Made by a program: the position numbers and the translations under genes. From NCBI GenBank assembly GCA_900557185.1, contig USRP01000001.1, forward strand, positions 11 to 64,010: a stretch of DNA of 64,000 bases, read 5' to 3'. The notes under the pieces are model-generated. The model ran no database searches, was not told the origin of the DNA, and saw only the letters and a list, made by a program, of their open reading frames with translations. The stretch comes from an uncultured Mycoplasmatota bacterium (GTDB taxonomy: Bacteria; Bacillota_I; Bacilli_A; RF39; UBA660). This document shows, one piece after another, positions 6,400 to 56,581 of this stretch (within the stretch, counting starts at the first letter, position 1; each line of letters opens with the position of its first letter).

Positions 6400-7917
6400 A
6401 TGACAGAAGATAATAAAAAGGTGAAAAACCAAGAAGAAATGCCTCATTTAGAACCATCTCAAGAAGTAGATTTCCAAATGGGGGAAGAAACAGAAAAAGT
6501 AACACCTAAAGTAGAGGAAACAAAAAAAGAAGAAGTAAAAAAGCCAACATTAGAAGAACAAAAAAGAGCAGATGAAAAGAAATTACATAAGAGTTCGCCA
6601 AAGATTTTTGTTATTTTGGCAGCAGTAATCTTAATTGTAATTAGTTTTGTAGGGTATTATGTATTTGCCTCTAATCCTAAGAGAATATTAGTTTCATCCA
6701 TTGATTCATTAAATAAGAAAATGAATACTTTAAATACTAACATAAGTAAATATCAAACAAACTTAAAAGATAATTTTAAATTAGATGGTAGCATGTCTGT
6801 AAAAATCAATTCTGATATTTTAGAAGCATATGGTTCTATGGGAATGTATCCAGAATTAACACAAATATTAACTAATTTAGAAAATACAGAATTTCAATAT
6901 GAATATCAACAAAATATAGAAGATAAAAAACTATATTTTAAATTAACACCAAGCTTAAATGGAAAAGAATTAACAAATGTTACTTATTATAATGAGAGTA
7001 GTAATCAATACATATTAATTAAAGAAATCGCTTCAGAATACTTAGAATTAAATCAATTAGATATCTTTGATACATTACAAAATACAAATATGGATGATTA
7101 TAATTATATTGTTGATGTAGTAAAAGATAGTTTATATCAACATGTAACAAAGAACGATTTTAATATCAGTAACGTCAAAGTAAAAATTGATGGCGAAGAC
7201 AAAGAAGTAAAGAAAGTTGCTTTGACATTAGATGCGAAAAGAGCAAACGAATTATTTGATCAAGTAATCAATGATTTAAAGAAAGATAAAAAAGCCAATA
7301 AGATTATGAATCGTATTTCTCCAGAGTTTAAAAATTATAAGAAACAAGAAGTAGATAATAAAGATTCTTCTGTTTTGAATTTTATAACTTATGTTACAAA
7401 ATTCTCTCATGAACCAGTAAAATATGCTTTAACAGTAACTGATTCTTATACAAAAAAAGAAAGTGGAATGGCTTTCACTGATGGAGAAACAAAAGAGTTT
7501 GAAATTATTGAAAACGAAAAAGTAATCGGTACAATTGAAATAAAAGGAAATCTTGAAAAGTTTGACATCACATTAAAAGATGCAAACGGAAAAAGCTTAG
7601 GAACAGGAAAAGGTTCTTATCAAGAAACAAAAGCTAATTTTGATATGTCATTGAATATGGATAAGGATATGGTACTAGCTTTTCACATGAATGCGAAAAA
7701 GGCTGGAAATCAAACTGATTCATCATTCCAATGTGAAATTTTAAGTAGCGATAATCAAAGTTTATTATCTTTTGAAATTGCTGATACAAACACGATTGAT
7801 AATAATACTAATATTAAAGTAGACACAGAAGGTAGTAGAAAAATGACAAAAGCAGACGAACAAAAACTATCTACTTGGCTACAACAATTACTTGCAAATT
7901 ATTTAATTACAGAATAA
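6400..7917 (+). CDS. Hypothetical single-pass membrane protein with a Lys/Glu-rich cytoplasmic N-terminus and a ~400 aa extracytoplasmic domain
   Basis: Long ORF. RBS aaggag 8 nt upstream of ATG 6400. TM helix IFVILAAVILIVISFVGYYVFA. No recognisable family. Confidence 0.5.
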   Translation: MTEDNKKVKNQEEMPHLEPSQEVDFQMGEETEKVTPKVEETKKEEVKKPTLEEQKRADEKKLHKSSPKIFVILAAVILIVISFVGYYVFASNPKRILVSSIDSLNKKMNTLNTNISKYQTNLKDNFKLDGSMSVKINSDILEAYGSMGMYPELTQILTNLENTEFQYEYQQNIEDKKLYFKLTPSLNGKELTNVTYYNESSNQYILIKEIASEYLELNQLDIFDTLQNTNMDDYNYIVDVVKDSLYQHVTKNDFNISNVKVKIDGEDKEVKKVALTLDAKRANELFDQVINDLKKDKKANKIMNRISPEFKNYKKQEVDNKDSSVLNFITYVTKFSHEPVKYALTVTDSYTKKESGMAFTDGETKEFEIIENEKVIGTIEIKGNLEKFDITLKDANGKSLGTGKGSYQETKANFDMSLNMDKDMVLAFHMNAKKAGNQTDSSFQCEILSSDNQSLLSFEIADTNTIDNNTNIKVDTEGSRKMTKADEQKLSTWLQQLLANYLITE

Positions 7918-7964
7918 AAGGAGATGAAAATCTTCTTTTTTCTTTGAAAAATAAGAAAAAATAG

Positions 7965-7994
7965 TTGACAACTAAAAAAACGATATGCTATAAT
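7965..7994 (+). promoter_or_regulatory. Sigma-A type promoter for tRNA-Ala (ttgaca-18 nt-tataat)
   Basis: Consensus -35 at 7965-7970 and -10 at 7989-7994, ~25 nt upstream of the tRNA. Confidence 0.45.
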
Positions 7995-45311: not shown

Positions 45312-45845
45312 ATGACTTTATATTTAGTAAGACATGGAGAAACAGATTGGAATTTAGAAAATAGAATTCAAGGGGATAGTGATATTCCATTAAATCAAAC
45401 AGGAATTTTACAAGCAAGAGAAGTGAAAGATAAGTTAAAAGATATTGCATTTGATCTTTGTTATACTTCTCCTTTAGAAAGAGCCTATAAAACAGCCCAA
45501 ATCATCATCGAAGGGAAATGCCCAATTATTTCTGTTCCCGAGCTCATAGAGCGTGATTTTGGTAAAATAGAGGGGAATCCAATCACATCAGAACAATCTA
45601 AAAAATATTGGAACTATCAATTAAACTCTAGTGATGATGAAGTAGAACCAGTAAGACATCTATTAGACCGTACGAGAAACTTTTTAATAAAATTATTACA
45701 AGAACATAGAAATCAAACCATTTTAATTGTTACCCACGGTTCTACATTAAGAGCACTACACTATAACATAACTGGCTATCAAACAACAGAAGACTTCATG
45801 AAATTTCAAGTTCAAAATTGTCAAATCTTTCAATATGAGATATAA
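45312..45845 (+). CDS. Histidine phosphatase family protein (phosphoglycerate-mutase-like)
   Basis: N-terminal [10 protein letters not shown] catalytic motif. Confidence 0.65.
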
Positions 45846-46299
45846 TGAAAACGTTGGTGATAACATGGAAATAGTAAATAGAAAAGCAAAATTTGACTAC
45901 GAAATTATTGATACATATGAAGCTGGAATTGTCTTAACAGGAACAGAAATTAAATCATTAAGACAAGGAAATGCAAATATCAAAGATAGTTATGCAGTAA
46001 TTAGAAATAACGAAGCATATCTTTTAAATATGCATATTAGTATCTATAAAGAAGGAAATCAATTTAATCATGATGAAACACGTACGAGAAAATTATTATT
46101 ACATAAAAAAGAAATTTATAAATTACGTGACAAAATCGCATTGAATGGTTATACTTTAGTTCCATTAAAAGTATATTTTAGTAAAAATTATGCTAAAGTA
46201 TTACTAGGTCTTGGTAAAGGTAAGAAAAATTACGATAAACGAGAAGCTATGAAGAAAAGAGATACAGAAATGTATTTGAAAAAAATGACAAAATATTAA
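45835..46299 (+). CDS. smpB: SsrA-binding protein
   Basis: Strong similarity to the SmpB N-terminus (…[29 protein letters not shown]…) and C-terminal basic tail. Alternative start at 45865. Confidence 0.8.
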
Positions 46300-46317
46300 T
46301 TTATATGACTCTTTTTG

Positions 46318-46360
46318 AAAAGAAAAAAATAAAGCTTTAATGGGCTTTATTTTTTTATGA
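46318..46360. terminator. Terminator hairpin after smpB (aaagctttaatgggcttt + U-run)
   Basis: Inverted repeat followed by tttttttat. Convergent with the downstream minus-strand gene. Confidence 0.45.
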
Positions 46361-46637
46361 TATTCTGTTTTTCAGGATGATTTTGAAACCATTTTTTTGC
46401 ATAGGAACATGTCGCAATACATGTTTTTTCTTGACTCTGAATGACTTCATAAGCATGTTGTAATAATGAGTCGGCGATATGCATTCCCCGATAAGCAGGA
46501 TCTACATAAGTATGATTGATATTAAGTAAGCTATTTTGTTCGGGAAACGTAACTTCACCAACTATCTTTCCATTATCTTTTACATATACGCGGTTTTCTT
46601 CTCTGATATATTCCATATAATCACCTAATAATATCAT
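46347..46637 (-). CDS. Small GNAT-like acetyltransferase (YjdJ-type, ~95 aa)
   Basis: Short acetyl-CoA-binding core (…VDPAYRGMHIADSLLQHA…). Confidence 0.5.
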   Translation of the reverse strand: MILLGDYMEYIREENRVYVKDNGKIVGEVTFPEQNSLLNINHTYVDPAYRGMHIADSLLQHAYEVIQSQEKTCIATCSYAKKWFQNHPEKQNIIKK

Positions 46638-46663
46638 ATAAAAATATCAAAAATATGACAAGG

Positions 46664-46894
46664 TTAATGTGAAGACTTTATCTTTTGATTCAGCTCTTTT
46701 TGAAATAAATATTCTTCGTATACAACATCTTCAAACTTTTTATAATATTTTATCAATAATTTTTGGCTGTGTTCTAATCTTCGTTTATTTACTTCATTTG
46801 GACATTTTCGATAAATCTCTTGTAAATTTGCTATCTTTCGTTCTAATGGTTCAATTATAATTTTACAAAAGTCTCTCACATTTTCATTAAACAT
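46664..46894 (-). CDS. Hypothetical small helical protein
   Basis: 76 aa ORF upstream of the GNAT gene in the same orientation. Confidence 0.3.
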   Translation of the reverse strand: MFNENVRDFCKIIIEPLERKIANLQEIYRKCPNEVNKRRLEHSQKLLIKYYKKFEDVVYEEYLFQKELNQKIKSSH

Positions 46895-47019
46895 ATTTTC
46901 CCTCCATATCTCGAATAAAATCTATTCACATAATCATATTATTAGTATAACACATAATCAAGTTATGTATTTTAATAAAATTTAGAAATTTTTATATATA
47001 CTGTCAAGTATAGTAATAG

Positions 47020-47253
47020 GTGGTAGTAAAAATGAAATTAGTGATACAAAAGAATCGATATACGAAAGGTGAAATTATTAAGATTTTAAGAGAGTGGACA
47101 GGAAAAACACAAAAAGAATTTGCCGAAGATATTGGAAAAAGTATGAATAGTATTCAGAAATATGAAGCAGACGAAGTAAATTATAGTATTCAAACGTTAT
47201 TAGATATTGTTAAGAAAAACGGATTAGTCATTACTATTGAAAAGAAAAAATAA
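47020..47253 (+). CDS. XRE-family helix-turn-helix protein
   Basis: HTH signature (…REWTGKTQKEFAEDIGKSMNSIQKYE…). Alternative start at 47032. Confidence 0.5.
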   Translation: MVVKMKLVIQKNRYTKGEIIKILREWTGKTQKEFAEDIGKSMNSIQKYEADEVNYSIQTLLDIVKKNGLVITIEKKK

Positions 47254-47332
47254 AGTGTCAAGTAACAAGAAGGTACAGGTATTTTTTGAGAAATATGATA
47301 AAATATAGATATATTGAGAATAAAGAAATGAA

Positions 47333-48079
47333 GTGTTATGTATGAGAAAGTACCGAAAAATAAAAATACCAAAAAGCCCGAAAGCTTTTCTTGTTTCATT
47401 GATTGTAATAGGTATTGCTGGATGCTTGACAGCATATCAAAATAATTTATTTACACCTAAAAAAGAAGAAAAGCCAGTCGCACAAACATCTTATCAATTA
47501 GAAAATATTCCTCCATATCAAGGAAATGCATATGTTGTGATCAATCAAAACGAACCAAAATTTACAGAAGAAGACAAAAATTTTACAGGGGAAAACTACA
47601 GTAATTTAGATACATTAGGACGTTGTGGCATTGCAATGGCACGTGTGGGAATAGATACGATGCCAACAGAAGAACGAGGTAGTATTGGTATGATAAAACC
47701 ATCAGGATGGCATACTGTAAAGTATGATATTGTCAGTGGAAAATACTTATATAATCGTTGCCATTTAATTGGATATCAATTAACAGGAGAAAATGCCAAT
47801 GAAAAGAATTTAATTACATGTACAAGAAGTATGAATACAACGGGTATGTTAGAATGGGAAAATAAAGTAGCTGACTATGTGAAAGAAACAAAAAAACATG
47901 TATTATATCGTGTAACCCCTATGTTTCAGGATGAAAATTTAGTCGCAACAGGAGTTCAAATCGAAGCTCTATCATTAGAAGATAACGGAGAAGGGGTCAA
48001 ATTTAATGTCTTCGTTTATAATGTACAAGAAGGGATAGAAATTGATTATAAAACAGGGGACAGTAAATTAAAAGAATGA
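47333..48079 (+). CDS. Secreted lipoprotein DNA/RNA non-specific endonuclease (EndA/NucA-like)
   Basis: Signal peptide with lipobox (IAGC) and the DRGH-type active-site region (…YNRCHLIGYQL…N…). Confidence 0.6.
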   Translation: MLCMRKYRKIKIPKSPKAFLVSLIVIGIAGCLTAYQNNLFTPKKEEKPVAQTSYQLENIPPYQGNAYVVINQNEPKFTEEDKNFTGENYSNLDTLGRCGIAMARVGIDTMPTEERGSIGMIKPSGWHTVKYDIVSGKYLYNRCHLIGYQLTGENANEKNLITCTRSMNTTGMLEWENKVADYVKETKKHVLYRVTPMFQDENLVATGVQIEALSLEDNGEGVKFNVFVYNVQEGIEIDYKTGDSKLKE

Positions 48080-48080
48080 A

Positions 48081-48103
48081 AAAAGATACCTAGGTATCTT
48101 TTT
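48081..48103. terminator. Bidirectional terminator (aaaagatacctaggtatctttt)
   Basis: Perfect palindrome with A/T runs between convergent genes. Confidence 0.5.
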
Positions 48104-48254
48104 ATAATGGAAATCTATTTTTGTAATCAAAATATTCCCATATACAATAGATGATAAATTTAAAATATTCGATCATATGTTACCTCCTCATTACTAACAT
48201 TCCGTAAAAAGAGGTAAATTCCTGCAAAAAAAAGCAAATAGTTTTTATATTTGC

Positions 48255-48608
48255 TTAATAAGGAAAAGGTCTCATTCTGCCTGGAATGATTAATCTTTGC
48301 CCAGGAAAAACGATTGGAAAAGTCATTTGATTCACAAACATAATATCGTTTACAGAAACCCCAAATCTTCTACTGATAGACCAAATGGTATCCCCACGTC
48401 TTACAATATATATACGATTCATTGGTGGAGTAGGTTGAAATGGTGGTCTTGGCGGTCTAGGATTTACTGGTGGAATAATAATCACCATTCCAGGTATTAA
48501 TCGACTGTTTGGTCCTAATCCATTCATACTCATTAACTCATTAGTAGGTACTTGAAAACTTTGAGCAATACTGTCTATACTATCATTGGGAGTTACAGTA
48601 TAAGTCAT
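48255..48608 (-). CDS. LysM-domain protein (two LysM repeats joined by a Pro-rich linker), spore-coat/cell-wall binding type
   Basis: YTVTPNDSIDSIA… and YIVRRGDTIWSIS… LysM motifs. PRPPRPPFQPTPP linker. Confidence 0.6.
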   Translation of the reverse strand: MTYTVTPNDSIDSIAQSFQVPTNELMSMNGLGPNSRLIPGMVIIIPPVNPRPPRPPFQPTPPMNRIYIVRRGDTIWSISRRFGVSVNDIMFVNQMTFPIVFPGQRLIIPGRMRPFPY

Positions 48609-48698
48609 AAATATCCTCCTTTATTTTCAAGGATATTATATGAAATCAAAAGAAATAAGTGATATATAAAAACGTAGATGAATCATACATCTACATTT

Positions 48699-48995
48699 TT
48701 AGTGTCTTTCATGTAATCTACGCTTGATTTGTATGATTAAATCAATTGGTGGTTTTTCCATCTGATTTAATACAAGTAAAGCATCTTGTAATTTTGTTTT
48801 TAATGAATAAGTATCTTTAATATGTTCTATTTCATTGTCTAATTCAAAACTTGAACTAGGATTTTGCTTCATAAATTCAATAATATATTCTTTGATATCT
48901 TGTAACACAAATTCTTTTAATGGGTAAGAATCCATCTCCATGACACCAAAATAGCCACTAATCATATATCGATAAGCATCTTCTATTTCTATCAT
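48699..48995 (-). CDS. Hypothetical protein
   Basis: 98 aa ORF. No family recognised. Confidence 0.35.
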   Translation of the reverse strand: MIEIEDAYRYMISGYFGVMEMDSYPLKEFVLQDIKEYIIEFMKQNPSSSFELDNEIEHIKDTYSLKTKLQDALLVLNQMEKPPIDLIIQIKRRLHERH

Positions 48996-49091
48996 TCTAT
49001 CACCTGTAAATTTATTTTATCAAAGAAATAAGTGAAAAGCTACTATCTATATTATAAATTTTATGCTACCATAAAGATGGTGAAAAGGTGA

Positions 49092-49865
49092 GTGATTGAT
49101 ATGACATTTGATTTTGAAAATTTTGATGGTACGAATAGTGATATTATTGAAATAGTGTCATCAGAATCAGCATTGAAATTATTAAAACGTAGTGGGAATA
49201 AAAACATAAAAGTTTGTTTACCATTATCATTATATATTGGTAAATTGGACAGCATGAAGCCGTTTAATAGAAAAGTACTATCTAAATATTATAAAAATAA
49301 TGCCACTTATAATTTTACTGATGTTTTTCATAAATTAGAACAAATTATTCAGCATTGTACAAAAATTAGAATTTGGTCTAGTCATTTAGATAGCGATTCT
49401 TATTGTTTATTGTTATTGATATGCTATTTATTTCAAGATAAGAAAATTAGCGCTATTTTTTCTGAGGAATTGGATGGGAATGCCCCATCAATTACTTCAT
49501 TAAGTGAATTAGAAATTCACGATTCAGAAAAGAGAGAACATGTATTAACGCAATTACAAAAAAATGATTATTGTGAACAATGGGAAAAAATAGTTAATGA
49601 TAATAAAGAATTAAGATATATGATGAATGGAGTTGTTATATCTTGTGATATAGATTCTTTTAATCATGAGATTATAGATAGATTAAAAGAAGTGAAAAAA
49701 GCATATATATATTATTTCATCACAGACTTAATGATTCATCCATCAATTCCAAATGTCATGTTTCCGGATATGTTTTATAAGTATTTAATAGAAAATTTAG
49801 AATCGGATGGAATTATAAAAAGTTCTATTATAGATGGAAAAAAATATATAGAATTAAATCAATAA
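49092..49865 (+). CDS. Hypothetical protein, possibly DUF1835/DUF3658-like
   Basis: 257 aa. The N-terminal …IIEIVSSESALKLLKRSG… weakly resembles the DUF1835 start. Low confidence. Confidence 0.3.
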   Translation: MIDMTFDFENFDGTNSDIIEIVSSESALKLLKRSGNKNIKVCLPLSLYIGKLDSMKPFNRKVLSKYYKNNATYNFTDVFHKLEQIIQHCTKIRIWSSHLDSDSYCLLLLICYLFQDKKISAIFSEELDGNAPSITSLSELEIHDSEKREHVLTQLQKNDYCEQWEKIVNDNKELRYMMNGVVISCDIDSFNHEIIDRLKEVKKAYIYYFITDLMIHPSIPNVMFPDMFYKYLIENLESDGIIKSSIIDGKKYIELNQ

Positions 49866-49971
49866 AATATTTTAAAATTGTTAGGTGGAGAACAATAATG
49901 TGTTGCAATTGCTAGAAGTTAATTTTATGTTTGGAAAATGATTTGCGATGATGAACCACCTGGTAGCTTAG

Positions 49972-50014
49972 ATAAAAAAACAATGAATAACTATGATTTT
50001 TCATTGTTTTTTTG
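49972..50014. terminator. Bidirectional terminator hairpin (aaaaaaacaatgaa…ttcattgttttttt)
   Basis: Inverted repeat caatgaa/ttcattg flanked by A7 and T7. Confidence 0.45.
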
Positions 50015-50146
50015 TTGATTAAAATATTTTGCCATTTCTCTTACCATCATTCTATGAAACATAAATTACACCTTCTTTGAATTTTTATATTTATGTAGTT
50101 TTCGAGTTCTACAAATTTAATATTTTTACTCAAGTTATTTTTTTAT

Positions 50147-50193
50147 AAAAGTTCGTGTATTTGAACAGATTTCTATAATGGTGCCGTTGAGGA
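50147..50193. repeat. Imperfect (~85%) direct repeat of the tmRNA 3' end (last ~14 nt) plus its terminator hairpin; putative distal attachment-site remnant
   Basis: aaaagttcgtgtatttgaacagatttctataatggtgccgttgagga matches aaaagttcgtacttttcgaacagatttctataatggtggagctgagga at 51727-51774. Confidence 0.5.
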
Positions 50194-50291
50194 AGTTATC
50201 TACAACTTTTACCAAAGGTAACTGATGTATGAATCAATCACTATATACATTATAATCCATTTTTTATTTTGAGGTTAATTATTTAATACAT

Positions 50292-51332
50292 TTACATTTT
50301 TTTCACAGAAGTTTCATTATAGTCATTATTTTTTTGCTCTTGCATAATTTCTTCAACTCTATGTACTACTGATTTTGATATTGCCTTGCGATTTATGGTA
50401 AAATTATTTTTTCTTTCAACATCAAGTTTGTAATCAATCATCATATCTACATCATCTTTTATAATCCTTGCATCATATCTATCTTTTGGACGTGAATTCT
50501 TTTTTGAATTGTAAATACTTTCTAAACTCATCATTTTATAAGGGATACCATTATGATATCTTATTAAATTAGAAAATGACATATCTGTATAATCTTTAGA
50601 AAAATGATGTTCATCAACAAATAGTTGTTTACTACCATTTTGATTTTCAAAATAATATTCTTTTGTAGTTATACTATTATCTGGTTGTCGTTCAAACAAA
50701 AATAAACCGATACTCATAGGAGTTCCTTTATATACGATTTTATATTCATGACCATTAACTTCTTTATGAGCCATATTACTAATAAATTCAAAATCTGCAC
50801 TGGAATCTATTAAGTCTTTTAATGTTATTAATTGTTGTTCATTTATAAATAAGTCTAAATCTCCATGATATCTTTCTAACACATGATTAGTTGCTAAATA
50901 GCCCATAAGTCCACCTGTATAATAGCAATCAAATCTTCCTTCAATTAAAGCGTTGAATTCATCGAAAGCATCAATAACTAACTGATGATTTTCTGTTAAA
51001 GGCATATTTGGATGTTCCATATTCATACCTTTAATCCAATTTAGTCTGGCAATCAAATCATTAACAGATGTATACTGTTCAGGGTTTAATTTTATAATAG
51101 ATTCAACATTTGCAAAAATATCTTCTTCGGTTATCATCTTTCTATTTAGTAAATCATTTAATGAAACCAAAATAGCATCAATAGAGTCACTTATATTCAT
51201 TGAACACAATTTGTTAATAGTATCATATATTTGATCTTGATTCGTAATATTTGCCCGTTGTGCAAAAGTATAAACTAGTTTAGTTACAGTTTCTTTTTGA
51301 AATTCATTCATACAGCACCTCATACTTTCCAT
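50292..51332 (-). CDS. Extended nucleotidyltransferase with a LinA/Lnu(A)/ANT(2'')-like core (Pol-beta superfamily)
   Basis: Central YYTGGLMGYLATNHVLERYHGDLDLFI block aligns with the Lnu(A) YWLDGGWGVDVLTGKQQREHRDIDIDF and ANT(2'')-Ia WIGGGWAIDARLGRVTRKHDDIDL motifs. A downstream S-x-E-S-I block matches the family's second conserved region. Extra ~125 aa N-terminal domain. RBS gaggtg. Confidence 0.5.
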   Translation of the reverse strand: MESMRCCMNEFQKETVTKLVYTFAQRANITNQDQIYDTINKLCSMNISDSIDAILVSLNDLLNRKMITEEDIFANVESIIKLNPEQYTSVNDLIARLNWIKGMNMEHPNMPLTENHQLVIDAFDEFNALIEGRFDCYYTGGLMGYLATNHVLERYHGDLDLFINEQQLITLKDLIDSSADFEFISNMAHKEVNGHEYKIVYKGTPMSIGLFLFERQPDNSITTKEYYFENQNGSKQLFVDEHHFSKDYTDMSFSNLIRYHNGIPYKMMSLESIYNSKKNSRPKDRYDARIIKDDVDMMIDYKLDVERKNNFTINRKAISKSVVHRVEEIMQEQKNNDYNETSVKKM

Positions 51333-51509
51333 TCAATTATATCATTAATTTTGGTAATTTACTATATTTCCAAATCAAAGTCATCGTGATCTTTGTGTTT
51401 TTCAATTTTTCGTAAACCTTTTACACTCTGAATTGCATTGTTTGTTCAAGAAAGTGTACTATAATAACCGCTTTTTTCTATATTTTATGATAACAGATTT
51501 CTGTTTTTA

Positions 51510-51539
51510 TCACTTGAATAGGGTAAAGTACTCATTCAT
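51510..51539 (-). other. Candidate leader mini-ORF (MNEYFTLFK, 9 codons) with a perfect SD GGAGGT, followed by a bulged hairpin, ~175 nt upstream of the nucleotidyltransferase gene
   Basis: Minus strand reads gaaaGGAGGTaaaaATGAATGAGTACTTTACCCTATTCAAGTGA, then tgataaaaacag-aaat-ctgttatca hairpin overlapping the stop. Confidence 0.2.
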
Positions 51540-51726
51540 TTTTACCTCCTTTCATAGATATATTTTGGCTCTAACAAAATATTTAACCCCCTAGGTATTT
51601 TGACATAAACATCAAAATAACCTGTGGAAAAAGGGATATTCCCTAAACCCCTTTTAGACTTGTTTCTTCTAGGTTGATTTTTTCATAAAACGAAAAAATC
51701 AATCATTTCTGATTGATTCCTATATC

Positions 51727-51774
51727 AAAAGTTCGTACTTTTCGAACAGATTTCTATAATGGTGGAGCTGAGGA
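51727..51774. repeat. Proximal copy of the direct repeat: tmRNA 3' terminus plus its intrinsic terminator
   Basis: Overlaps tmRNA nt 51760-51774. On the tmRNA strand the hairpin gttcg-aaaagta-cgaac + uuuug follows the CCA end. Confidence 0.5.
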
Positions 51775-52146
51775 GAGTCGAACTCCTGTCCAAATATAAA
51801 ACTCCCTAACCATCTACAAGTTTAGTTCACAAAGGATGTCCTTATAAAAATTAGATGTGAACGTCTATTTTATAAGTAAGCTTGTATGATTCGTTATTAT
51901 TTCCAAGCTAAATAATAATATATCCTATTTTAATCGAGCCCTTATCAATTCCCAATAGGAGAAAGAATAAAAAGAGCCATTCCTGCACTTTTCTTAGGCA
52001 AAAGTAGGAGTAGCGAAAGCGCTACTTAATCTACTAAGAATGTTAGTTAATTTATTTTTTCCAGTTATTTTCTGTTTGTACGTAACGTGTACCTCCGACT
52101 TGCCGAATTAAGCTTTTTTATATCCGTCGAAACCATAAACAGCCCC
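51760..52146 (-). ncRNA. ssrA: tmRNA (ssrA), standard one-piece form
   Basis: 5' GGGGCUGUUUAUGGUUUCGACGG… and 3' …GGACAGGAGUUCGACUCUCCUCAGCUCCACCA form the tRNA-Ala-like acceptor (G3:U wobble) and T-arm. Internal ORF candidate starts at GGA ~nt 85 and ends at UAA. Confidence 0.85.
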
Positions 52147-52246: not shown

Positions 52247-53089
52247 ATGAAGAGAGGAATTGATGTTTCAAGTCATCAAGGAGTCATTGATTGGGAAGCA
52301 GTAAAGGGGAATATTGATTATGCGATTATTCGTTGTGGTTATGGAGCAGATAGAGAGAGCCAAGATGATACTTATTTTAAAAGAAATGCAAATGAGTGTA
52401 CCAGATTAGGGATTCCTTTTGGTGTATATTTATATAGTTATGCGGATAATATCAGTTGGTCTGATAGTGAAGTAGAACATGTGTTGAGACTTGTAAAAGG
52501 GTATCAATTAGAATATCCTATTTATTATGATATTGAAGATAAAGTACAAGCTAATTTATCAAATGAAACACTTACTGATATTGTTGTTAACTTTTGTGAA
52601 AAATTAGAACAACAAGGGTACTATGTTGGTGTTTATGCCAATTTAAATTGGTGGAATACGAAGTTAAATTCAAATCGTCTTGATGCATATGCGAAATGGG
52701 TAGCACGTTATAATACGGTACTTGGTTATGATGCAGGTATGTGGCAGTATACAAGTAGTGGTACAATTGCCGGAATTAATGGAAATGTCGATATGGATTA
52801 TTGTTATGTCGATTATCCTGAAGCAATCAAGAAAGCCGGATTAAATGGATTTCCAAAAGAAGAAACACCAACCAAACCAATTCCTGAAATACCACCTGTT
52901 ACAGATGTCAATACAGAAATAGAAAACTTAAAAAAAGAAATAGAAACATTAAAAAAAGAGAATGAACAATTACAAGAAACATGTCAAGAAAAAGAATTGG
53001 TTTTTACTTGTGAAAAAGCAGGTACTTATTATATAGAATTAAAAGAACAAGATAAATTATTTTATGAACCAGGAGCCATACAAAAGTAA
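52247..53089 (+). CDS. GH25 family lysozyme (muramidase) with a C-terminal coiled-coil region
   Basis: N-terminal GIDVSSHQGVIDWEAV… GH25 signature. C-terminal heptad-rich segment. Confidence 0.75.
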   Translation: MKRGIDVSSHQGVIDWEAVKGNIDYAIIRCGYGADRESQDDTYFKRNANECTRLGIPFGVYLYSYADNISWSDSEVEHVLRLVKGYQLEYPIYYDIEDKVQANLSNETLTDIVVNFCEKLEQQGYYVGVYANLNWWNTKLNSNRLDAYAKWVARYNTVLGYDAGMWQYTSSGTIAGINGNVDMDYCYVDYPEAIKKAGLNGFPKEETPTKPIPEIPPVTDVNTEIENLKKEIETLKKENEQLQETCQEKELVFTCEKAGTYYIELKEQDKLFYEPGAIQK

Positions 53090-53218
53090 AAGAAAGAATC
53101 TATCATAATAGACTTCTTTTTTATGTCAAGTAAACGCCTACTACTCATGTAATTCATATACAAAAAGCAATGATTTTGTTATAATAGATTATAATGAAAG
53201 AGAATGGGGAGGGATTAC

Positions 53219-56200
53219 ATGAAGAAAGTTTTTAAAACAATGATTTCTGGCTTTTTATGTACTTTACTATTATCTCTTAGTTTAATTCCTCCTTATGTAC
53301 CAAAAGTAAGTGCAGCAGAATATCCAATATATGGAGTTGTTAATTTTAGAACGAAAGATTGTAATACCAATACGTTGTACACAAGAGAAAGTGGAGAACA
53401 GGGTTATACCAATGGTTGTTATGGTGCCGATGCAGCTTTTTTAGGAATTGAAAATGGTATGGTAAAATTTAAAATGTCCGGTGTGATTGGATATGTAAAT
53501 CCAAACGATGTAGAAATACGTAATATGGATCCAGAAACAATTACTACTTATATTTCAAATTATCGTGTTAAGAATGGTGAACTACAACATGTTATACAGT
53601 TAGATGTAAACAATTATAAATCTGGTAATGTGATTACAATTGGACGAGCACCTAGTAATTTAAGTGATGGTACTTACTATAGTTATGATGGTATTTATTT
53701 TTATCCAGATACATTAGATGGATTTAAAATGATGATCGATGATTATAAAGGTGGAACAAGTTATCGTGCAGCGAATGCGAATCAACCATATTATAATTAT
53801 TATCAATATTTACCAACTAGAACAATTAGTAACTATACAAGTGAAGATTTAAAAGTTGATTTTTCAAGTTATACAAGTAAAATGACAGGATATCCAGCTA
53901 AAGAAAATGAATCGCAACTTTATGGGGAACATGTATCATTTATAGAATATCAAAACGAGTATGGTGTCAATGCAATGATGGCTTTAGGACTTGCGAAAAA
54001 TGAAAGTGCAATGGGAAAAAGTCAGATAGCATACAATAAGAATAATTTGTTTGGAATTGCTGTTTATGATAGTAATACTGGAGCAGGTAAGTCATTTGCA
54101 ACTGTACGTGAGAGTATTCGTTATTTTGATAAGAATTTGATTTCTGAAGGATATTTGGATCCAAAAGATGCAGGTGGAAGATATCATGGTGGACACTTTG
54201 GAAATAAAGGTGCTGGATTTAGTGTAAAATATGCATCTGATCCATATTGGGGAGATAAAGAAGCATCTTATTATTATAATTTTGATAAAGCTTATGGAAA
54301 CCAAGATTATAATAAATATACAATAGGTATTAAAGGAACAAATGGAAATTATAATATTAAAAAAGAACCTACTACTTCTTCTGTTTCTCTATATCAGACA
54401 ACGAAAAATAGAAATGTACCATTTGTTATTTTAGATACAATTACAAATAATGAAGGAACTTGGTTTAAGATTCAAACAGATCCAACCTTAGTACCAGGAA
54501 GAAATAGTATTTTACAAGATAATGGTGCTTATGATTTTAATAATAACTATGGATATATTCATTCTAGTATTATTACTTATATTAGTTATGGAAATGGAAT
54601 GAAAAATCGATATACGATTGATTTTAATCCAAATGGAGGAAGATTTATCGATGGAGAGACTTCTACGAAAAGATTAACTGTAGAAGAATATGTAACGCCA
54701 GAACTTGCCAATCCTGTGAGAGATGGTTATACATTTGCTGGATGGGATCAAACAGTAATGCCAGCTCAATCTAATAAAACTTATACGGCTGTATGGAAGA
54801 GTAATAATCCACAGAAATATACGATTACTTTTGATGCGAATGGTGGAACATTTGAAGATGGCAGCATGACAAAAACACAAACATTAGAAGAAGGAAGTAG
54901 ACCATCAGAGCCAAAATCACCAACAAAGAATGGTTATACATTTGTTGATTGGGATAGTGAAATATCTTTAGTAACTGGAAATAAAACATATAAAGCAGTT
55001 TGGGAAAAAGTATTAGAAAAATACAATATTACCTTTGATGCCAATGGTGGTAAATTTAACGATAATAAAGAGACAAAAACAGTTGTTACAACGGAAGGAC
55101 AAAAGCCACAGGTGCCAGAGAATCCAACTAAGGATGGTTATATTTTTATCGGATGGGATAAAGAAATTACGGAGGCAACTGCAAATACGACATATACGGC
55201 TGTTTGGGAAAAAGACAAAGCAACATACCAAATTACATTTGACGCCAATGGTGGAACATTTGAAGATGGTAAAGATAAACAAGTAGTAGATACATTAGAA
55301 GGTAATATTCCAGAAGAGCCAAAAGCACCAACGAGAAATGGTTATAAATTTACTGGTTGGGATAAGGAAATAGTTGCTGCTGATGGTAATACCACTTATA
55401 AAGCACAATGGCAAAAAGTAAAGACATATGCGATTACATTTGATGCAGATGGTGGAGTATTTGAAAATGGAAAAGATAAAATAACAATCAACGTAGAAGA
55501 AAATACAAAACCTTCTGTAAGTCATCCAACGAAAGATGGTTATATATTCCAAGGATGGGATAAAGAAATTACGAATGCGACAGAAGATACAACGTATAAA
55601 GCAATTTGGAAAGAATTAACTTTGGATGATTTAGAAGAGAGAAATGGTTTGTTCTATATCGATTCTCTCACTGAGAAAGATGGAAAATTAAAATTGAAAG
55701 GGTATAATACAATTGAAGGTATCAATAATACATTAGATACGGATATTGATTATACATTAGTCTTCGAAGATGTAAATACTAAGAAAGAAGTATTATCACA
55801 GAGTGCGAAGAGAATTACAGATTCTAAAGAACATCCATTCCCAATTTATAGTGTTGATGGAAAAGATTATACATATGCTTGGTTTGAGATGGATATTGAT
55901 GTAAGTAAATTACCAGCAGGAAATTATACTATGTATATGGTAGCGAATACAGATCAATATTATTCTAAGAAAGTTGTGAATAATCTAACGAATAGTAAGC
56001 AGGATGCTTCTTATGTACAAGATGAGAAAAATATTATTATTCGCAATAATTATAACTATGAAAACAGTCCAATCGAGTTATTAGTACGTAGTGCTAATGA
56101 GATGGATGTTCAGAAGAATGTAGGAACTTATTATAATCAATTTGATACTTATACAACATTTGAATTTACGAATGATAATTTATTACATATGAGAGGATTA

Positions 56201-56581
56201 TCTTATTCATATGGTATGGATTTAAGTAATCGTGGTACAACGACAAGAAAAGTATTATTTGAAAATCAAGAGAACTATAAAATCTATTCTAAAGATTTAG
56301 GATATATCACAACTGGTGATTATATTGCACCATTACCAGAAGATGATCATCTAGGAAAAGATCGTGCTTGGTATGATCAGAAAGTAAATTTAGGTGATAT
56401 ACCAAAAGGTACTTATGTTTTATATACGACAACTACTTCACAAGGTAAAACAGATATATCAGAAATGACAGAAAAAATGGGAAGGACGTTAGATGATGTT
56501 GTAAAAACTATCAATGGTAAACGTTATTCATTCCGCATTAATTATCAACAGAATAGTAGAATAGAAATGGTAGTAGAATAA
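53219..56581 (+). CDS. Secreted peptidoglycan hydrolase: GH73 endo-beta-N-acetylglucosaminidase domain plus six Listeria-Bacteroides (Flg_new) repeats and a large C-terminal beta-rich region
   Basis: Signal peptide. GH73 block (…ALGLAKNESAMGKS…NNLFGIA…). Repeats of ~70 aa each ending …DGYxFxGWDxEIT…YTAVW/AIW…. Confidence 0.7.
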   Translation: MKKVFKTMISGFLCTLLLSLSLIPPYVPKVSAAEYPIYGVVNFRTKDCNTNTLYTRESGEQGYTNGCYGADAAFLGIENGMVKFKMSGVIGYVNPNDVEIRNMDPETITTYISNYRVKNGELQHVIQLDVNNYKSGNVITIGRAPSNLSDGTYYSYDGIYFYPDTLDGFKMMIDDYKGGTSYRAANANQPYYNYYQYLPTRTISNYTSEDLKVDFSSYTSKMTGYPAKENESQLYGEHVSFIEYQNEYGVNAMMALGLAKNESAMGKSQIAYNKNNLFGIAVYDSNTGAGKSFATVRESIRYFDKNLISEGYLDPKDAGGRYHGGHFGNKGAGFSVKYASDPYWGDKEASYYYNFDKAYGNQDYNKYTIGIKGTNGNYNIKKEPTTSSVSLYQTTKNRNVPFVILDTITNNEGTWFKIQTDPTLVPGRNSILQDNGAYDFNNNYGYIHSSIITYISYGNGMKNRYTIDFNPNGGRFIDGETSTKRLTVEEYVTPELANPVRDGYTFAGWDQTVMPAQSNKTYTAVWKSNNPQKYTITFDANGGTFEDGSMTKTQTLEEGSRPSEPKSPTKNGYTFVDWDSEISLVTGNKTYKAVWEKVLEKYNITFDANGGKFNDNKETKTVVTTEGQKPQVPENPTKDGYIFIGWDKEITEATANTTYTAVWEKDKATYQITFDANGGTFEDGKDKQVVDTLEGNIPEEPKAPTRNGYKFTGWDKEIVAADGNTTYKAQWQKVKTYAITFDADGGVFENGKDKITINVEENTKPSVSHPTKDGYIFQGWDKEITNATEDTTYKAIWKELTLDDLEERNGLFYIDSLTEKDGKLKLKGYNTIEGINNTLDTDIDYTLVFEDVNTKKEVLSQSAKRITDSKEHPFPIYSVDGKDYTYAWFEMDIDVSKLPAGNYTMYMVANTDQYYSKKVVNNLTNSKQDASYVQDEKNIIIRNNYNYENSPIELLVRSANEMDVQKNVGTYYNQFDTYTTFEFTNDNLLHMRGLSYSYGMDLSNRGTTTRKVLFENQENYKIYSKDLGYITTGDYIAPLPEDDHLGKDRAWYDQKVNLGDIPKGTYVLYTTTTSQGKTDISEMTEKMGRTLDDVVKTINGKRYSFRINYQQNSRIEMVVE
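54610..55630 (+). repeat. Six tandem ~210-bp coding repeats (Flg_new domain repeats) inside the hydrolase gene
   Basis: Recurring DNA/protein blocks tttgatgc(g/c)aatggtgg…tatac(g/a)gctgt(a/t)tgg. Confidence 0.55.

What the first reader, a model, noticed from the sequence alone, without database searches (positions are those of the whole stretch)
50292..51332. Unusually long LinA/ANT(2'')-like nucleotidyltransferase as the sole cargo gene
The GG-x-G…H-x-D-h-D core and the downstream S-x-E block match the lincosamide/aminoglycoside nucleotidyltransferase family (Lnu(A), ANT(2'')-Ia). Those enzymes are ~160-180 aa. This protein is 346 aa, with an extra ~125-aa N-terminal domain and a charged C-terminal tail. 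It could be a divergent antibiotic-modifying enzyme. It could also be a nucleotidyltransferase of a different kind, for example a signalling or defence enzyme borrowed from the same fold. Its position on a putative mobile remnant makes either option notable.
Basis: inference. Interest (0 to 1): 0.6.

Follow-up and report, generated by a model that had tools for sequence, protein, structure and literature searches.

The report
Long Lnu(A)-like nucleotidyltransferase on tRNA-targeting cassette
The gene is real and encodes a distant, two-domain relative of the lincosamide and aminoglycoside resistance nucleotidyltransferases, but it lacks their catalytic base and rides on a small recombinase-less cassette of a type that elsewhere carries phage-defence genes, so it is more likely a new conflict or defence enzyme than an antibiotic resistance gene.

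Summary
The ORF is real, but the true start is probably ATG 51311, giving 339 aa. It belongs to a small family of about 236 representative clusters in uncultured gut Bacilli, and it matches no curated Pfam, NCBIfam, PADLOC or PHROG model.

Homology to Lnu(A)/ANT(2'') is confirmed. The best Foldseek PDB matches are LnuA and ANT(2'')-Ia. A family profile aligns to the whole LnuA family at 95.8% probability (E 8e-9). The R-x-H-x-D-x-D and K-D-x-x-D motifs are conserved. However, the third acidic residue, the catalytic base of the antibiotic enzymes, is Gly209 here and is never acidic in 54 relatives. The extra 105-aa N-terminal helical domain has no PDB fold match, and in other proteins it is fused to other enzyme domains.

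The gene is the only cargo of a 1581-bp cassette without a recombinase. The cassette is inserted directly after the CCA of the tmRNA gene. The same cassette, 97-99% identical, follows tRNA-Leu and tRNA-Thr genes in other genomes. Its conserved right end also bounds 35 of 36 metagenome cassettes with other cargo, including SoFic and PDC-S01.

Best reading: a cassette-borne conflict or defence nucleotidyltransferase with an unknown target. Classical antibiotic resistance is less likely.

The parts
50292..51311 (-). Coding sequence of the nucleotidyltransferase, 339 aa from the probable true start. The longest ORF extends to 51332 (346 aa).
   Evidence: ORF. Homologues start at M8. SD and -10 box positions. 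AF2 model pLDDT 90, pTM 0.85.
50997..51311 (-). N-terminal helical domain (residues 8-112 of the 346-aa ORF). It is a mobile module also found fused to a P-loop kinase, a sigma-70 region-4 HTH and other domains.
   Evidence: Secondary structure. No PDB fold match (best E 0.96). Alternative fusions P0340, P0289, P0292 and P0274.
50442..50996 (-). Lnu(A)/ANT(2'')-like catalytic region (residues 113-297). It holds G140-G141, R154, H156, D158, D160, G209 (in place of the third Asp), DNSIT 218-222, E271, K277, K283-D284 and D287.
   Evidence: hhalign against the LnuA family, probability 95.8%. Column frequencies. Foldseek.
51336..51344 (-). Extended -10 box (TGATATAAT) of the gene's own promoter. 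The GAGGTG ribosome-binding site lies at 51316-51321.
   Evidence: Sequence. Coordinates. This is a consensus match only, not shown to function.
50179..51759 (-). The whole single-gene cassette (1581 bp), from the base after the tmRNA CCA to its own terminal ...CACCA.
   Evidence: The same segment is 98.9% identical after tRNA-Leu(caa) in L005 and 97.4% identical after tRNA-Thr(ggt) in L007. Homology stops at both CCA ends.
51697..51759 (-). Cassette left end: TTATAGAAATCTG, a terminator-like hairpin GTTCGAAAAGTACGAAC (51747-51731), and a second hairpin AATCAATC...GATTGATT (51718-51697).
50179..50255 (-). Conserved cassette right-end module: a -10-like TATAAT, then about 64 nt, AGTGATTGATTCATACATCAGTTACCTTTGGTAAAAGTTGTAGATAACTTCCTCAACGGCACCA, ending in a pseudo-acceptor CCA.
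   Evidence: The same module ends cassettes with other cargo in L006, L030 and 35 metagenome contigs.
51760..52146 (-). tmRNA gene (ssrA), whose 3' CCA end is the insertion point.
   Evidence: ARAGORN. Rfam RF00023, 148 bits.
50145..50178 (-). Native tmRNA downstream flank (terminator-like), now displaced to the far side of the cassette. It resembles the cassette left end, which produces the 34-50-nt direct repeat.
   Evidence: Direct repeat D1. Alignment. The same flank is seen in L072, where the left junction differs.
51510..51601 (-). Promoter-like patch (51601-51569), also found upstream of other cassette genes, followed by a strong SD and a 9-codon mini-ORF (51539-51510, MNEYFTLFK). It is probably a remnant of another cassette's 5' end.

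Best explanation
The gene encodes a two-domain Pol-beta-superfamily nucleotidyltransferase.

Shown:
- The catalytic half (residues ~113-297) is a distant homologue of the Lnu(A)/ANT(2'') enzymes. It keeps the triphosphate- and Mg-binding residues R154, H156, D158 and D160, and the C-terminal K283-D284-x-x-D287 helix.
- A family-specific ~105-aa helical N-terminal domain precedes it. The same domain occurs elsewhere fused to other enzyme or DNA-binding modules.
- The gene is the single cargo of a 1.58-kb cassette with no recombinase. The cassette sits directly after the CCA end of the tmRNA gene. The same cassette sits after two different tRNA genes in other genomes.
- The cassette's conserved right end also bounds cassettes carrying SoFic, PDC-S01 and many other accessory genes.

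Inferred:
- The enzyme binds NTP-Mg and transfers an NMP to a hydroxyl on a cellular or phage target, not on a lincosamide or aminoglycoside. The canonical catalytic base is replaced by Gly209. E271, the only other near-invariant acid outside the K-D-x-x-D helix, may take over that role.
- The N-terminal domain acts as a regulatory or sensing module.
- The protein works as a single-gene conflict or defence effector, analogous in logic to the AMPylating SoFic protein.
- The cassette is moved in trans by a site-specific recombinase encoded elsewhere, which recombines the pseudo-tRNA CCA end of the cassette with the 3' ends of tRNA or tmRNA genes.
For: Homology:
- Foldseek top hits are LnuA and ANT(2'')-Ia.
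- hhalign of the family against the LnuA family gives 95.8% probability, E 8e-9, over 153 columns covering LnuA 8-161.
- Remote relatives reach the PF10706 and PF14907 thresholds.

Active-site conservation across 54 members down to ~19% identity to the query: R154, H156, K277 and D287 are invariant. D158, D160, E271, K283 and D284 are at least 90% conserved.

Missing catalytic base: the LnuA D90 column is G/T/S/W/A/V in all 54 members. The role of that residue comes from PMC4313920.

Modular N-domain. It has no known fold match.

Mobility: identical cassette borders at tmRNA, tRNA-Leu and tRNA-Thr.

Shared ends with other cargo:
- L006 SoFic, PADLOC E 1.7e-83, and L007 PDC-S01, E 3e-142.
- 35 of 36 metagenome contigs carrying the right-end pattern do not carry this gene.
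- The SoFic cassette itself is found both after a tRNA-Leu and after the NTase cassette.

Distribution: the family is small and restricted to one lineage (236 representatives in 1.84 billion proteins). It sits in hypervariable neighbourhoods. It is absent from the plasmid and phage collections.
Against: - No known defence model matches the protein (PADLOC).
- Across the whole family, only about 8-10 of 149 neighbouring proteins hit PADLOC models, which is a mild signal with no control set.
- Cassette cargo is mixed. It includes an ABC-F ATPase, an acyltransferase and membrane proteins, so neighbourhood association is weak evidence.
- The absence of the third carboxylate rests on sequence-profile alignment, not on a structural superposition. 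I could not obtain model coordinates.
- No target, trigger or toxicity is known.
- The closest characterised relatives are antibiotic-modifying enzymes.
Confidence: 0.45

Rival explanations
1. It is a divergent antibiotic- or xenobiotic-modifying O-nucleotidyltransferase (lincosamide, aminoglycoside or another small molecule). It would be a mobile resistance gene of gut Bacilli.
For: - The closest folds and the only significant profile match are Lnu(A)/ANT(2'').
- The two beta-hairpins plus helical bundle that form the drug-binding C-terminal domain of ANT(2'') are present in the model (PMC4313920).
- The gene is on a mobile cassette. Another cassette of the same type carries an ABC-F ATPase, which could be a ribosome-protection resistance protein.
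- The hosts live in animal and human guts.
Against: - The catalytic base and third Mg ligand conserved in Lnu(A), LinB, ANT(2''), ANT(4'), ANT(6) and Pol beta is absent.
- LnuA-family invariant residues H92, Q137, H141 and Y144 are not kept.
- The family diverges down to 19% identity within one lineage instead of spreading nearly unchanged across taxa.
- There is no hit in 72,556 plasmids.
- The N-domain is shared with kinase and HTH proteins.
Confidence: 0.2
2. It is a MenT/AbiEii-like toxin or an RNA-repair enzyme that adds nucleotides to RNA 3' ends, for example tRNA acceptor ends.
For: - Foldseek matches MenT3/TglT over 230-271 columns (probability 0.82-0.98, TM 0.32-0.43).
- The K-x-x-x-R-x-K-D-x-x-D helix resembles AbiEii motif III. 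This is from my own knowledge and was not tested here.
- Neighbouring and related proteins combine ASCH and P-loop kinase domains, which is typical of RNA-end chemistry.
Against: - No PF08843/AbiEii hit.
- No conserved adjacent antitoxin gene.
- The profile match is to LnuA rather than to MenT.
- The Foldseek E-values for MenT3 are 0.03-0.07.
Confidence: 0.15
3. It is a LicD/FKRP-like phosphotransferase that decorates cell-envelope polymers using CDP-activated donors.
For: - FKRP (PDB) and many LicD proteins (viral library) are significant Foldseek matches.
- Some long relatives carry a C-terminal membrane anchor.
- The window neighbourhood holds cell-wall enzymes (GH25, LysM).
Against: - No PF04991 hit in any of the 57 family members scanned.
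- LnuA/ANT(2'') score better.
- The query itself has no membrane segment.
- The neighbourhood is not conserved.
Confidence: 0.08
4. The protein is itself the mobility enzyme of the 1.58-kb unit, that is, a new kind of transposase or recombinase that targets tRNA CCA ends.
For: - It is the only gene in a unit that has moved between three tRNA/tmRNA genes.
- Family members at 55-72% identity also lie next to tRNA 3' ends (L010, L046, L027, L033-L035).
Against: - The same right-end module bounds 35 metagenome cassettes and the SoFic and PDC-S01 cassettes, none of which encodes this protein.
- Most family members lack the module.
- The fold is that of small-molecule nucleotidyltransferases.
Confidence: 0.03

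Closest known systems
Lnu(A)/LinA and ANT(2'')-Ia (Pfam PF10706, Aminoglyc_resit)
   Same: - The nucleotidyltransferase fold is followed by beta-hairpins and a helical bundle.
- The R-x-H-x-D-x-D motif, the D-G/N-S-I-T turn, the I-P...S-x-E...K-D-x-x-D block and their order all match.
- Profile-profile probability is 95.8%.
   Different: - It is twice as long, with an extra N-terminal helical domain and a ~50-aa C-terminal extension.
- The third acidic residue, the catalytic base, is replaced by Gly.
- Several LnuA-invariant residues are not kept.
- The PF10706 HMM does not detect it.
- It is not found on plasmids.
PF14907 (NTP_transf_5, uncharacterised nucleotidyltransferases)
   Same: Remote family members reach the PF14907 threshold over the GG...DxD region (P0282, 31.3 bits against a cut-off of 31.2).
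   Different: The query and its close relatives do not match it, apart from one sub-threshold hit (E 0.059) among the 39 close relatives. That family has no known function, so membership would not inform function.
SoFic, a single-gene AMPylating anti-phage defence protein
   Same: - It is a single-gene system based on nucleotidyl-transfer chemistry.
- It is carried on a cassette with the same right end and the same tRNA-CCA insertion behaviour.
- SoFic biology is described in bioRxiv 10.1101/2022.05.11.491447 and PMC12249575.
   Different: The fold is unrelated (Fic versus Pol-beta NTase). No defence activity has been shown for the protein studied here.
MenT/AbiEii nucleotidyltransferase toxins
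   Same: Pol-beta NTase core followed by a basic/acidic helix. Weak Foldseek similarity.
   Different: No HMM match, no partner antitoxin, and a different domain order.
Integrase-less tRNA-linked elements: CIMEs and degraded tycheposon cargo in tRNA-linked islands
   Same: - The unit is flanked by att-like partial tRNA ends and has no recombinase of its own.
- Units stack by successive insertion at a tRNA 3' end.
- Background: PMC5704250 and bioRxiv 10.1101/2020.12.28.424599.
   Different: - The units here are very small, 0.5-2.3 kb, and mostly single-gene.
- They use many different tRNA and tmRNA genes.
- They share a strongly conserved ~85-nt end with a promoter-like box.
- No cognate integrase-bearing parent element was found.

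Membership tests
Lnu(A)/ANT(2'') family (PF10706) | Match to the curated Pfam model at or above the gathering score | tested here: not met
   No PF10706 hit for the query at E<=10, nor for the 39 close relatives. Only remote relatives hit it: P0295 at 25.5 bits against a cut-off of 21, and P0303 at 21.0 bits.
Lnu(A)/ANT(2'') family (PF10706) | Profile-level homology over the whole enzyme | tested here: met
   hhalign of A4 (54 sequences) against A3 (30 PF10706 proteins): probability 95.8%, E 8.1e-9, 153 columns, LnuA residues 8-161. With only close relatives (A1) the match was not significant.
Lnu(A)/ANT(2'') family (PF10706) | Two-domain fold: NT fold plus a C-terminal domain of beta-hairpins and a helical bundle | tested here: met
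   AF2 model with pLDDT 90. The best PDB matches are 4fo1, 5kqj, 4wqk, 5cfu and 4xje. The fold description is from PMC4313920.
Lnu(A)/ANT(2'') family (PF10706) | Triphosphate and Mg ligands R-x-H-x-D-x-D (ANT(2'') R40, H42, D44, D46) | tested here: met
   R154 and H156 are invariant. D158 is present in 52 of 54 and D160 in 53 of 54. They are aligned to LnuA R42, H44, D46 and D48.
Lnu(A)/ANT(2'') family (PF10706) | Third acidic residue, which is Mg ligand and catalytic base (ANT(2'') D86, LnuA D90) | tested here: not met
   It aligns with Gly209. The column is G37/T6/S5/W4/A1/V1 in 54 sequences. This is based on sequence alignment; a 3D superposition was not possible.
Lnu(A)/ANT(2'') family (PF10706) | Confers resistance by adenylylating lincosamides or aminoglycosides | not testable with these tools
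   Needs MIC tests and enzyme assays.
MenT/AbiEii toxins (PF08843) | HMM match and an adjacent cognate antitoxin gene | tested here: not met
   No such Pfam hit. No conserved neighbour across 47 loci. Foldseek to MenT3 gives only E 0.03-0.07.
LicD/FKRP phosphotransferases (PF04991) | HMM match to LicD | tested here: not met
   No PF04991 hit. Fold similarity is present but weaker than to LnuA.
CD-NTases (CBASS) | cGAS/DncV-like fold with an adjacent effector gene | tested here: not met
   DncV matches have rmsd ~22 A and TM 0.17. No PADLOC hit. It is a single-gene unit.
Known anti-phage defence systems (PADLOC-DB 2.0) | Match to a defence protein model | tested here: not met
   0 families at E<=10. 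Only sibling cassettes match, to SoFic and PDC-S01.
Cis-mobilizable (integrase-less) integrative element at a tRNA/tmRNA gene | Discrete unit bounded by att-like repeats of the tRNA 3' end, the same unit at different sites, and no recombinase inside | tested here: met
   Borders at CCA ends at tmRNA, tRNA-Leu and tRNA-Thr. No other ORF in the unit. No recombinase domain in the neighbours scanned.
Cis-mobilizable (integrase-less) integrative element at a tRNA/tmRNA gene | A cognate recombinase acting in trans, and excision to a circle | not testable with these tools
   No recombinase was identified. Needs whole genomes, junction PCR or long reads.

The most novel reading that the evidence does not exclude
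The 1.58-kb unit belongs to a previously undescribed, integron-like cassette system of gut Bacilli.
- Hundreds of tiny, mostly single-gene cassettes each end in a promoter-bearing, tRNA-like ~64-nt module that finishes in CCA.
- An unidentified trans-acting recombinase, possibly guided by that module, inserts them directly behind the CCA of essentially any tRNA or tmRNA gene. This builds defence and accessory arrays.
- Within this system, the Lnu(A)-like enzyme with a rewired active site and a new N-terminal sensor domain would be a new single-gene anti-phage or conflict effector.
Probability: 0.25. Interest if true: 0.8.

Novelty: new variant of a known kind. Interest (0 to 1): 0.55.

Why it matters
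Annotation pipelines or resistome screens that rely on fold similarity could label this gene as a lincosamide or aminoglycoside resistance gene on a mobile element. The missing catalytic base and the genomic context argue against that label.

If the protein is a defence or conflict effector, it shows the antibiotic-nucleotidyltransferase scaffold reused with a new regulatory domain and a rewired active site.

The vehicle is also of interest. These are very small cassettes without recombinases that share a conserved tRNA-like end and stack behind tRNA and tmRNA genes of small-genome gut Bacilli. They offer a defined, testable route by which streamlined genomes exchange defence and accessory genes.

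Tried and rejected
1. Leader-peptide attenuation, as for erm/cat/ABC-F resistance genes. A strong SD plus a 9-codon ORF lies 200 nt upstream. It is not conserved beyond near-identical copies, because L001-L003 diverge there. The gene also has its own promoter and SD. The mini-ORF and its promoter patch recur upstream of unrelated cassette genes, so this is probably a cassette remnant. Rejected.
2. The nucleotidyltransferase as the transposase. Rejected because the same ends bound 35 other cargos.
3. Tandem paralogues. The apparent '[0+][0+]' arrays were single-linkage artefacts and one split pseudogene, L024.
4. Right end in viral contigs. Only chance matches inside unrelated coding sequences.
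5. RNA structure of the right-end module. Folding z-scores are about -3 for three variants. There are no compensatory pairs in 21 sequences and no Rfam match. Inconclusive.
6. N-domain fold search. Nothing significant.
7. First hhalign with close relatives only. Not significant; it became significant only with the diverse alignment.
8. Defence enrichment among 149 neighbours. Only a mild signal, and no control set.
10. Search for recombinases next to cassette ends. The 400-515-aa ORFs there are a Schlafen/AlbA-like ATPase, an ABC-F protein, an ADP-ribosyltransferase-like protein, a membrane acyltransferase and similar proteins, judged by reading the sequences. None looks like a recombinase.
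Full report
**1. The observation**

It is a real gene. A search of 5.8 billion clusters found 320 homologues, nearly all 320-340 aa and colinear from end to end, at 58-93% identity among the best 120.

All homologues begin at the residue equivalent to M8. An extended -10 box (TGATATAAT, 51344-51336) and a GAGGTG ribosome-binding site (51321-51316) precede the ATG at 51311. The protein is therefore most likely 339 aa. Residue numbers below follow the 346-aa ORF.

**2. What curated libraries say**

The query has no significant hit in Pfam, NCBIfam, PADLOC or PHROGs, and none in PDB sequences. A profile of close relatives also finds nothing in PDB sequences. Scanning 39 relatives one by one gives only sub-threshold hits: DUF4026_N, MdcG and one to NTP_transf_5.

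**3. Fold and distant homology**

An AlphaFold2 model built on 39 relatives is confident (pLDDT 90, pTM 0.85). It shows these elements:
- a helical N-terminal region (helices between residues 10 and 102);
- helix 112-130;
- strand 136-139, ending in the GG;
- helix 141-147;
- strand 158-164, beginning with D158-L-D160;
- further strands;
- two beta-hairpins;
- a helical bundle.

Foldseek against the PDB ranks LnuA first (4fo1, E 4.8e-5, TM 0.66 on the target). ANT(2'')-Ia entries follow (TM 0.61-0.70). FKRP, MenT3/TglT and CD-NTases rank well behind. Against viral models the matches are LicD-type proteins.

An exhaustive HMM search of 1.84 billion representatives shows a small family: 236 representatives at E<=1e-3. 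Some remote members reach Pfam thresholds over the GG...DxD region. P0295 scores 25.5 bits on PF10706 (cut-off 21), and P0282 scores 31.3 bits on PF14907 (cut-off 31.2).

I verified the LnuA sequence against 4fo1. I collected PF10706 proteins and aligned 30 of them (A3). A profile of close relatives alone did not match A3 significantly. A 54-sequence alignment reaching down to 19% identity (A4) matched at 95.8% probability, E 8.1e-9. That match spans 153 columns and covers LnuA residues 8-161. Homology to the Lnu(A)/ANT(2'') family is therefore established at profile level.

**4. How it differs from the resistance enzymes**

Across the 54 sequences, R154, H156, K277 and D287 are invariant. H116, D158, D160, Y226, E271, K283 and D284 are at least 90% conserved.

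R-x-H-x-D-x-D corresponds to ANT(2'')-Ia R40, H42, D44 and D46, which hold the triphosphate and the two Mg ions (PMC4313920). That paper shows that the third acidic residue, Asp86, is a Mg ligand and the catalytic base. It also reports that D86A is inactive. It states that the three acidic residues are conserved in Lnu(A), LinB, the other ANTs and Pol beta.

In the hhalign alignment, LnuA D90 (the Asp86 equivalent) pairs with Gly209. LnuA H92 pairs with Phe211. That column is G/T/S/W/A/V in all 54 sequences and is never acidic. The strand carrying it (S207-R215) has no conserved acid. E214 is variable.

E271 is the only other near-invariant acid outside the K-D-x-x-D helix.

The protein also has about 105 extra N-terminal residues and a poorly conserved C-terminal extension of about 50 residues.

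**5. The N-terminal domain**

Modelled alone, the domain is confident (pLDDT 88.7). It has no significant PDB fold match (best E 0.96).

The HMM search finds the same domain joined to other modules:
- a P-loop kinase (P0340);
- a sigma-70 region-4 HTH (P0289);
- a kinase-like protein (P0292);
- other partners.

The P-loop kinase domain in turn appears beside or fused to other N-terminal modules next to family members (L010, L019). This mix-and-match of a small helical module with different enzymatic heads is what is usually seen in conflict systems. That is an inference.

Some long relatives carry a C-terminal membrane anchor. One carries a PHP domain.

**6. The vehicle**

*Position.* The gene lies 428 bp downstream of the 3' end of the tmRNA gene (51760-52146, - strand).

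*The same unit at three different genes.* In representative genomes of other GTDB species, the protein is 99-100% identical. It also lies exactly 428 bp downstream of tRNA-Leu(caa) in L005 and of tRNA-Thr(ggt) in L007. DNA identity to L005 is 98.9% over 1587 bp, and to L007 it is 97.4%. The shared segment begins at the CCA of the tRNA or tmRNA. It ends at window position 50179, at the CCA of a pseudo-acceptor sequence...AAGTTGTAGATAACTTCCTCA-NNNN-CACCA. Beyond that point the flanks are specific to each locus. A discrete 1581-bp unit (50179-51759) has therefore been placed directly after the CCA of three different genes.

*No recombinase.* The unit contains no other ORF. No recombinase domain appears in the neighbours I scanned.

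*The direct repeat in the window.* The 34-50-nt direct repeat that a reader would see (50145-50193 against 51725-51774) comes from similarity between the cassette's left end and the native tmRNA terminator. A metagenome contig with the same tmRNA-side insertion (L072) has the canonical cassette left end instead.

**7. A cassette family**

The right end is not specific to this gene. Examples from genome loci:
- In L030, the tmRNA gene is followed by at least six units. Each ends in a related AAGTTGT...CCA motif followed by a short variable stretch and a TCGAAC-type hairpin. Their cargos are a 74-aa protein, a HIT-like protein, a P-loop protein, the nucleotidyltransferase and a peptide deformylase.
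- In L006, the unit after the nucleotidyltransferase cassette carries a Fic protein that matches SoFic (E 1.7e-83).
- In L007, the next unit carries PDC-S01 (E 3e-142).
- The SoFic cassette is also found directly after a tRNA-Leu gene in L093 at 94% identity. Homology there starts about 10 nt after the CCA.

A scan of metagenome contigs for the 30-nt end pattern returned 36 contigs. Only one carries the nucleotidyltransferase. The others carry unrelated cargo, and none has a recognisable recombinase next to the end.

The conserved end is about 85 nt long. It starts with a -10-like hexamer (TATAAT, TAAAAT or TAGAAT) about 7 nt before AGTGATTGATTC.... It could be a recombination site, a small tRNA-like RNA gene, or both. 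Folding is better than shuffled sequence for three of four variants. There is no covariation support and no Rfam family match.

These data make the nucleotidyltransferase cargo, not the mobility enzyme. They imply a recombinase acting in trans, which I did not find.

**8. Function**

*What is shown.* The protein is an intact NTP/Mg-binding nucleotidyltransferase core of the Lnu(A)/ANT(2'') lineage with a changed catalytic centre and a new modular N-domain. It is carried on a cassette type that elsewhere carries one proven kind of defence gene (SoFic, an AMPylating abortive-infection protein; bioRxiv 10.1101/2022.05.11.491447 and PMC12249575) and one candidate (PDC-S01).

*Supporting distribution data.* The family is restricted to uncultured gut Bacilli and Mycoplasmatota-like MAGs. 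Its neighbourhoods are hypervariable. It is absent from the phage and plasmid collections.

*What is inferred.* It nucleotidylylates a cellular or phage macromolecule or metabolite as a single-gene conflict or defence effector, with the N-domain as regulator.

*Why the evidence is only moderate.* PADLOC does not know the protein. Only about 8-10 of 149 neighbours across the family hit defence models. Cassette cargo is mixed.

*Rivals.* The antibiotic-resistance reading remains possible (0.2) but must explain the missing catalytic base. A MenT-like RNA-end transferase (0.15) and a LicD-like envelope phosphotransferase (0.08) are weaker rivals. A role in mobility is nearly excluded (0.03).

**9. 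Novelty**

The protein is a new, uncurated family within a known superfamily. It has a new domain architecture and an altered active site, so I class it as a new variant of a known kind.

The cassette system resembles integrase-less CIMEs (PMC5704250) and degraded tycheposon cargo in tRNA-linked islands (bioRxiv 10.1101/2020.12.28.424599). It differs from them in several ways:
- unit size;
- the number of tRNA targets;
- the conserved promoter-bearing end;
- the absence of any integrase-bearing parent element in the data I could reach.

I did not find a description of it, but my literature search was limited.

Noticed in passing
window 50179-50255 (- strand); also L006 3745-3809, L030 (six sites), L062-L097: A conserved ~85-nt module ends many different single-gene cassettes. 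It consists of a -10-like box, ~64 nt ending in a pseudo-acceptor ...TTCCTCAACGGCACCA, ~10 variable nt, and a TCGAAC hairpin belonging to the next unit. Of 36 metagenome contigs with the exact pattern, 35 carry cargo other than the nucleotidyltransferase. It may be an attC-like site or a tRNA-like small RNA gene. There is no covariation support and no Rfam match.
   Followed up: partly
L030 5310-11672: Downstream of a tmRNA gene lies an array of at least six small units that share related ends. Their cargos are a 74-aa protein, a HIT-like 153-aa protein, a 198-aa P-loop protein, the nucleotidyltransferase, a peptide deformylase and a DHH-family protein. No recombinase is present.
   Followed up: partly
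L006 2461-3809; L093 1679-3026; L007 9152-10600: Sibling cassettes carry SoFic (PADLOC E 1.7e-83) and PDC-S01 (E 3e-142). The SoFic cassette occurs both directly behind a tRNA-Leu gene and behind the nucleotidyltransferase cassette.
   Followed up: yes
window 51510-51601 (- strand): A promoter-like patch, a strong Shine-Dalgarno and a 9-codon ORF (MNEYFTLFK) lie inside the cassette's 5' region. The patch recurs upstream of unrelated cassette genes (L001 3217-3248, L030 5618-5644 and 6795-6826, L007 9231-9275).
   Followed up: partly
L021/L022/L023/L024 ~7418-7990; L010 6442-7533; L046 9051-9614; L001 8893-9450: An uncharacterised ~185-aa domain (MxKYxKVMFG...GGFNFSTE...RWLxRGDTIY) lies next to the nucleotidyltransferase gene in about four independent lineages. 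In L010 it is fused to a P-loop kinase. It has no Pfam hit and is absent from the window.
   Followed up: partly
proteins P0241, P0295, P0389, P0347, P0372: Long relatives of the family (700-830 aa) end in a conserved hydrophobic C-terminal anchor (...GFxNVxxLSLIxxxxxG...). One has a PHP phosphoesterase domain and another a weak HipA_C-like region.
   Followed up: no
window 46300-50145: The stretch between smpB (45835-46299) and the cassette is an accessory island without an integrase. It holds a GNAT acetyltransferase, an XRE-type HTH protein, a secreted DNA/RNA non-specific endonuclease, a double-LysM protein and a DUF1835/DUF3658 protein. No canonical cassette ends were found there.
   Followed up: partly
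window 51760-52146 (- strand): ARAGORN predicts an unusually long 30-residue tmRNA tag peptide (VTYKQKITGKNKLTNILSRLSSAFATPTFA), against 21 residues in the related locus L030. The resume codon may be mis-assigned.
   Followed up: no
window 53204-56581 (+ strand): A 1125-aa secreted protein carries about five tandem ~70-aa repeats (YxITFDANGGxFxDG...GYxFxGWD). Before the repeats lies a region that, read by eye, looks like a cell-wall hydrolase domain. A GH25 lysozyme gene lies just upstream (52247-53089).
   Followed up: no
L094 2654-4153; L070 861-2105 and L096 3547-4791: Other cassette cargos include a two-domain ABC-F ATPase, a possible ribosome-protection resistance protein. Another is a 414-aa protein with an ADP-ribosyltransferase-like R...S...E-x-E pattern. 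Both were judged by eye only.
   Followed up: no
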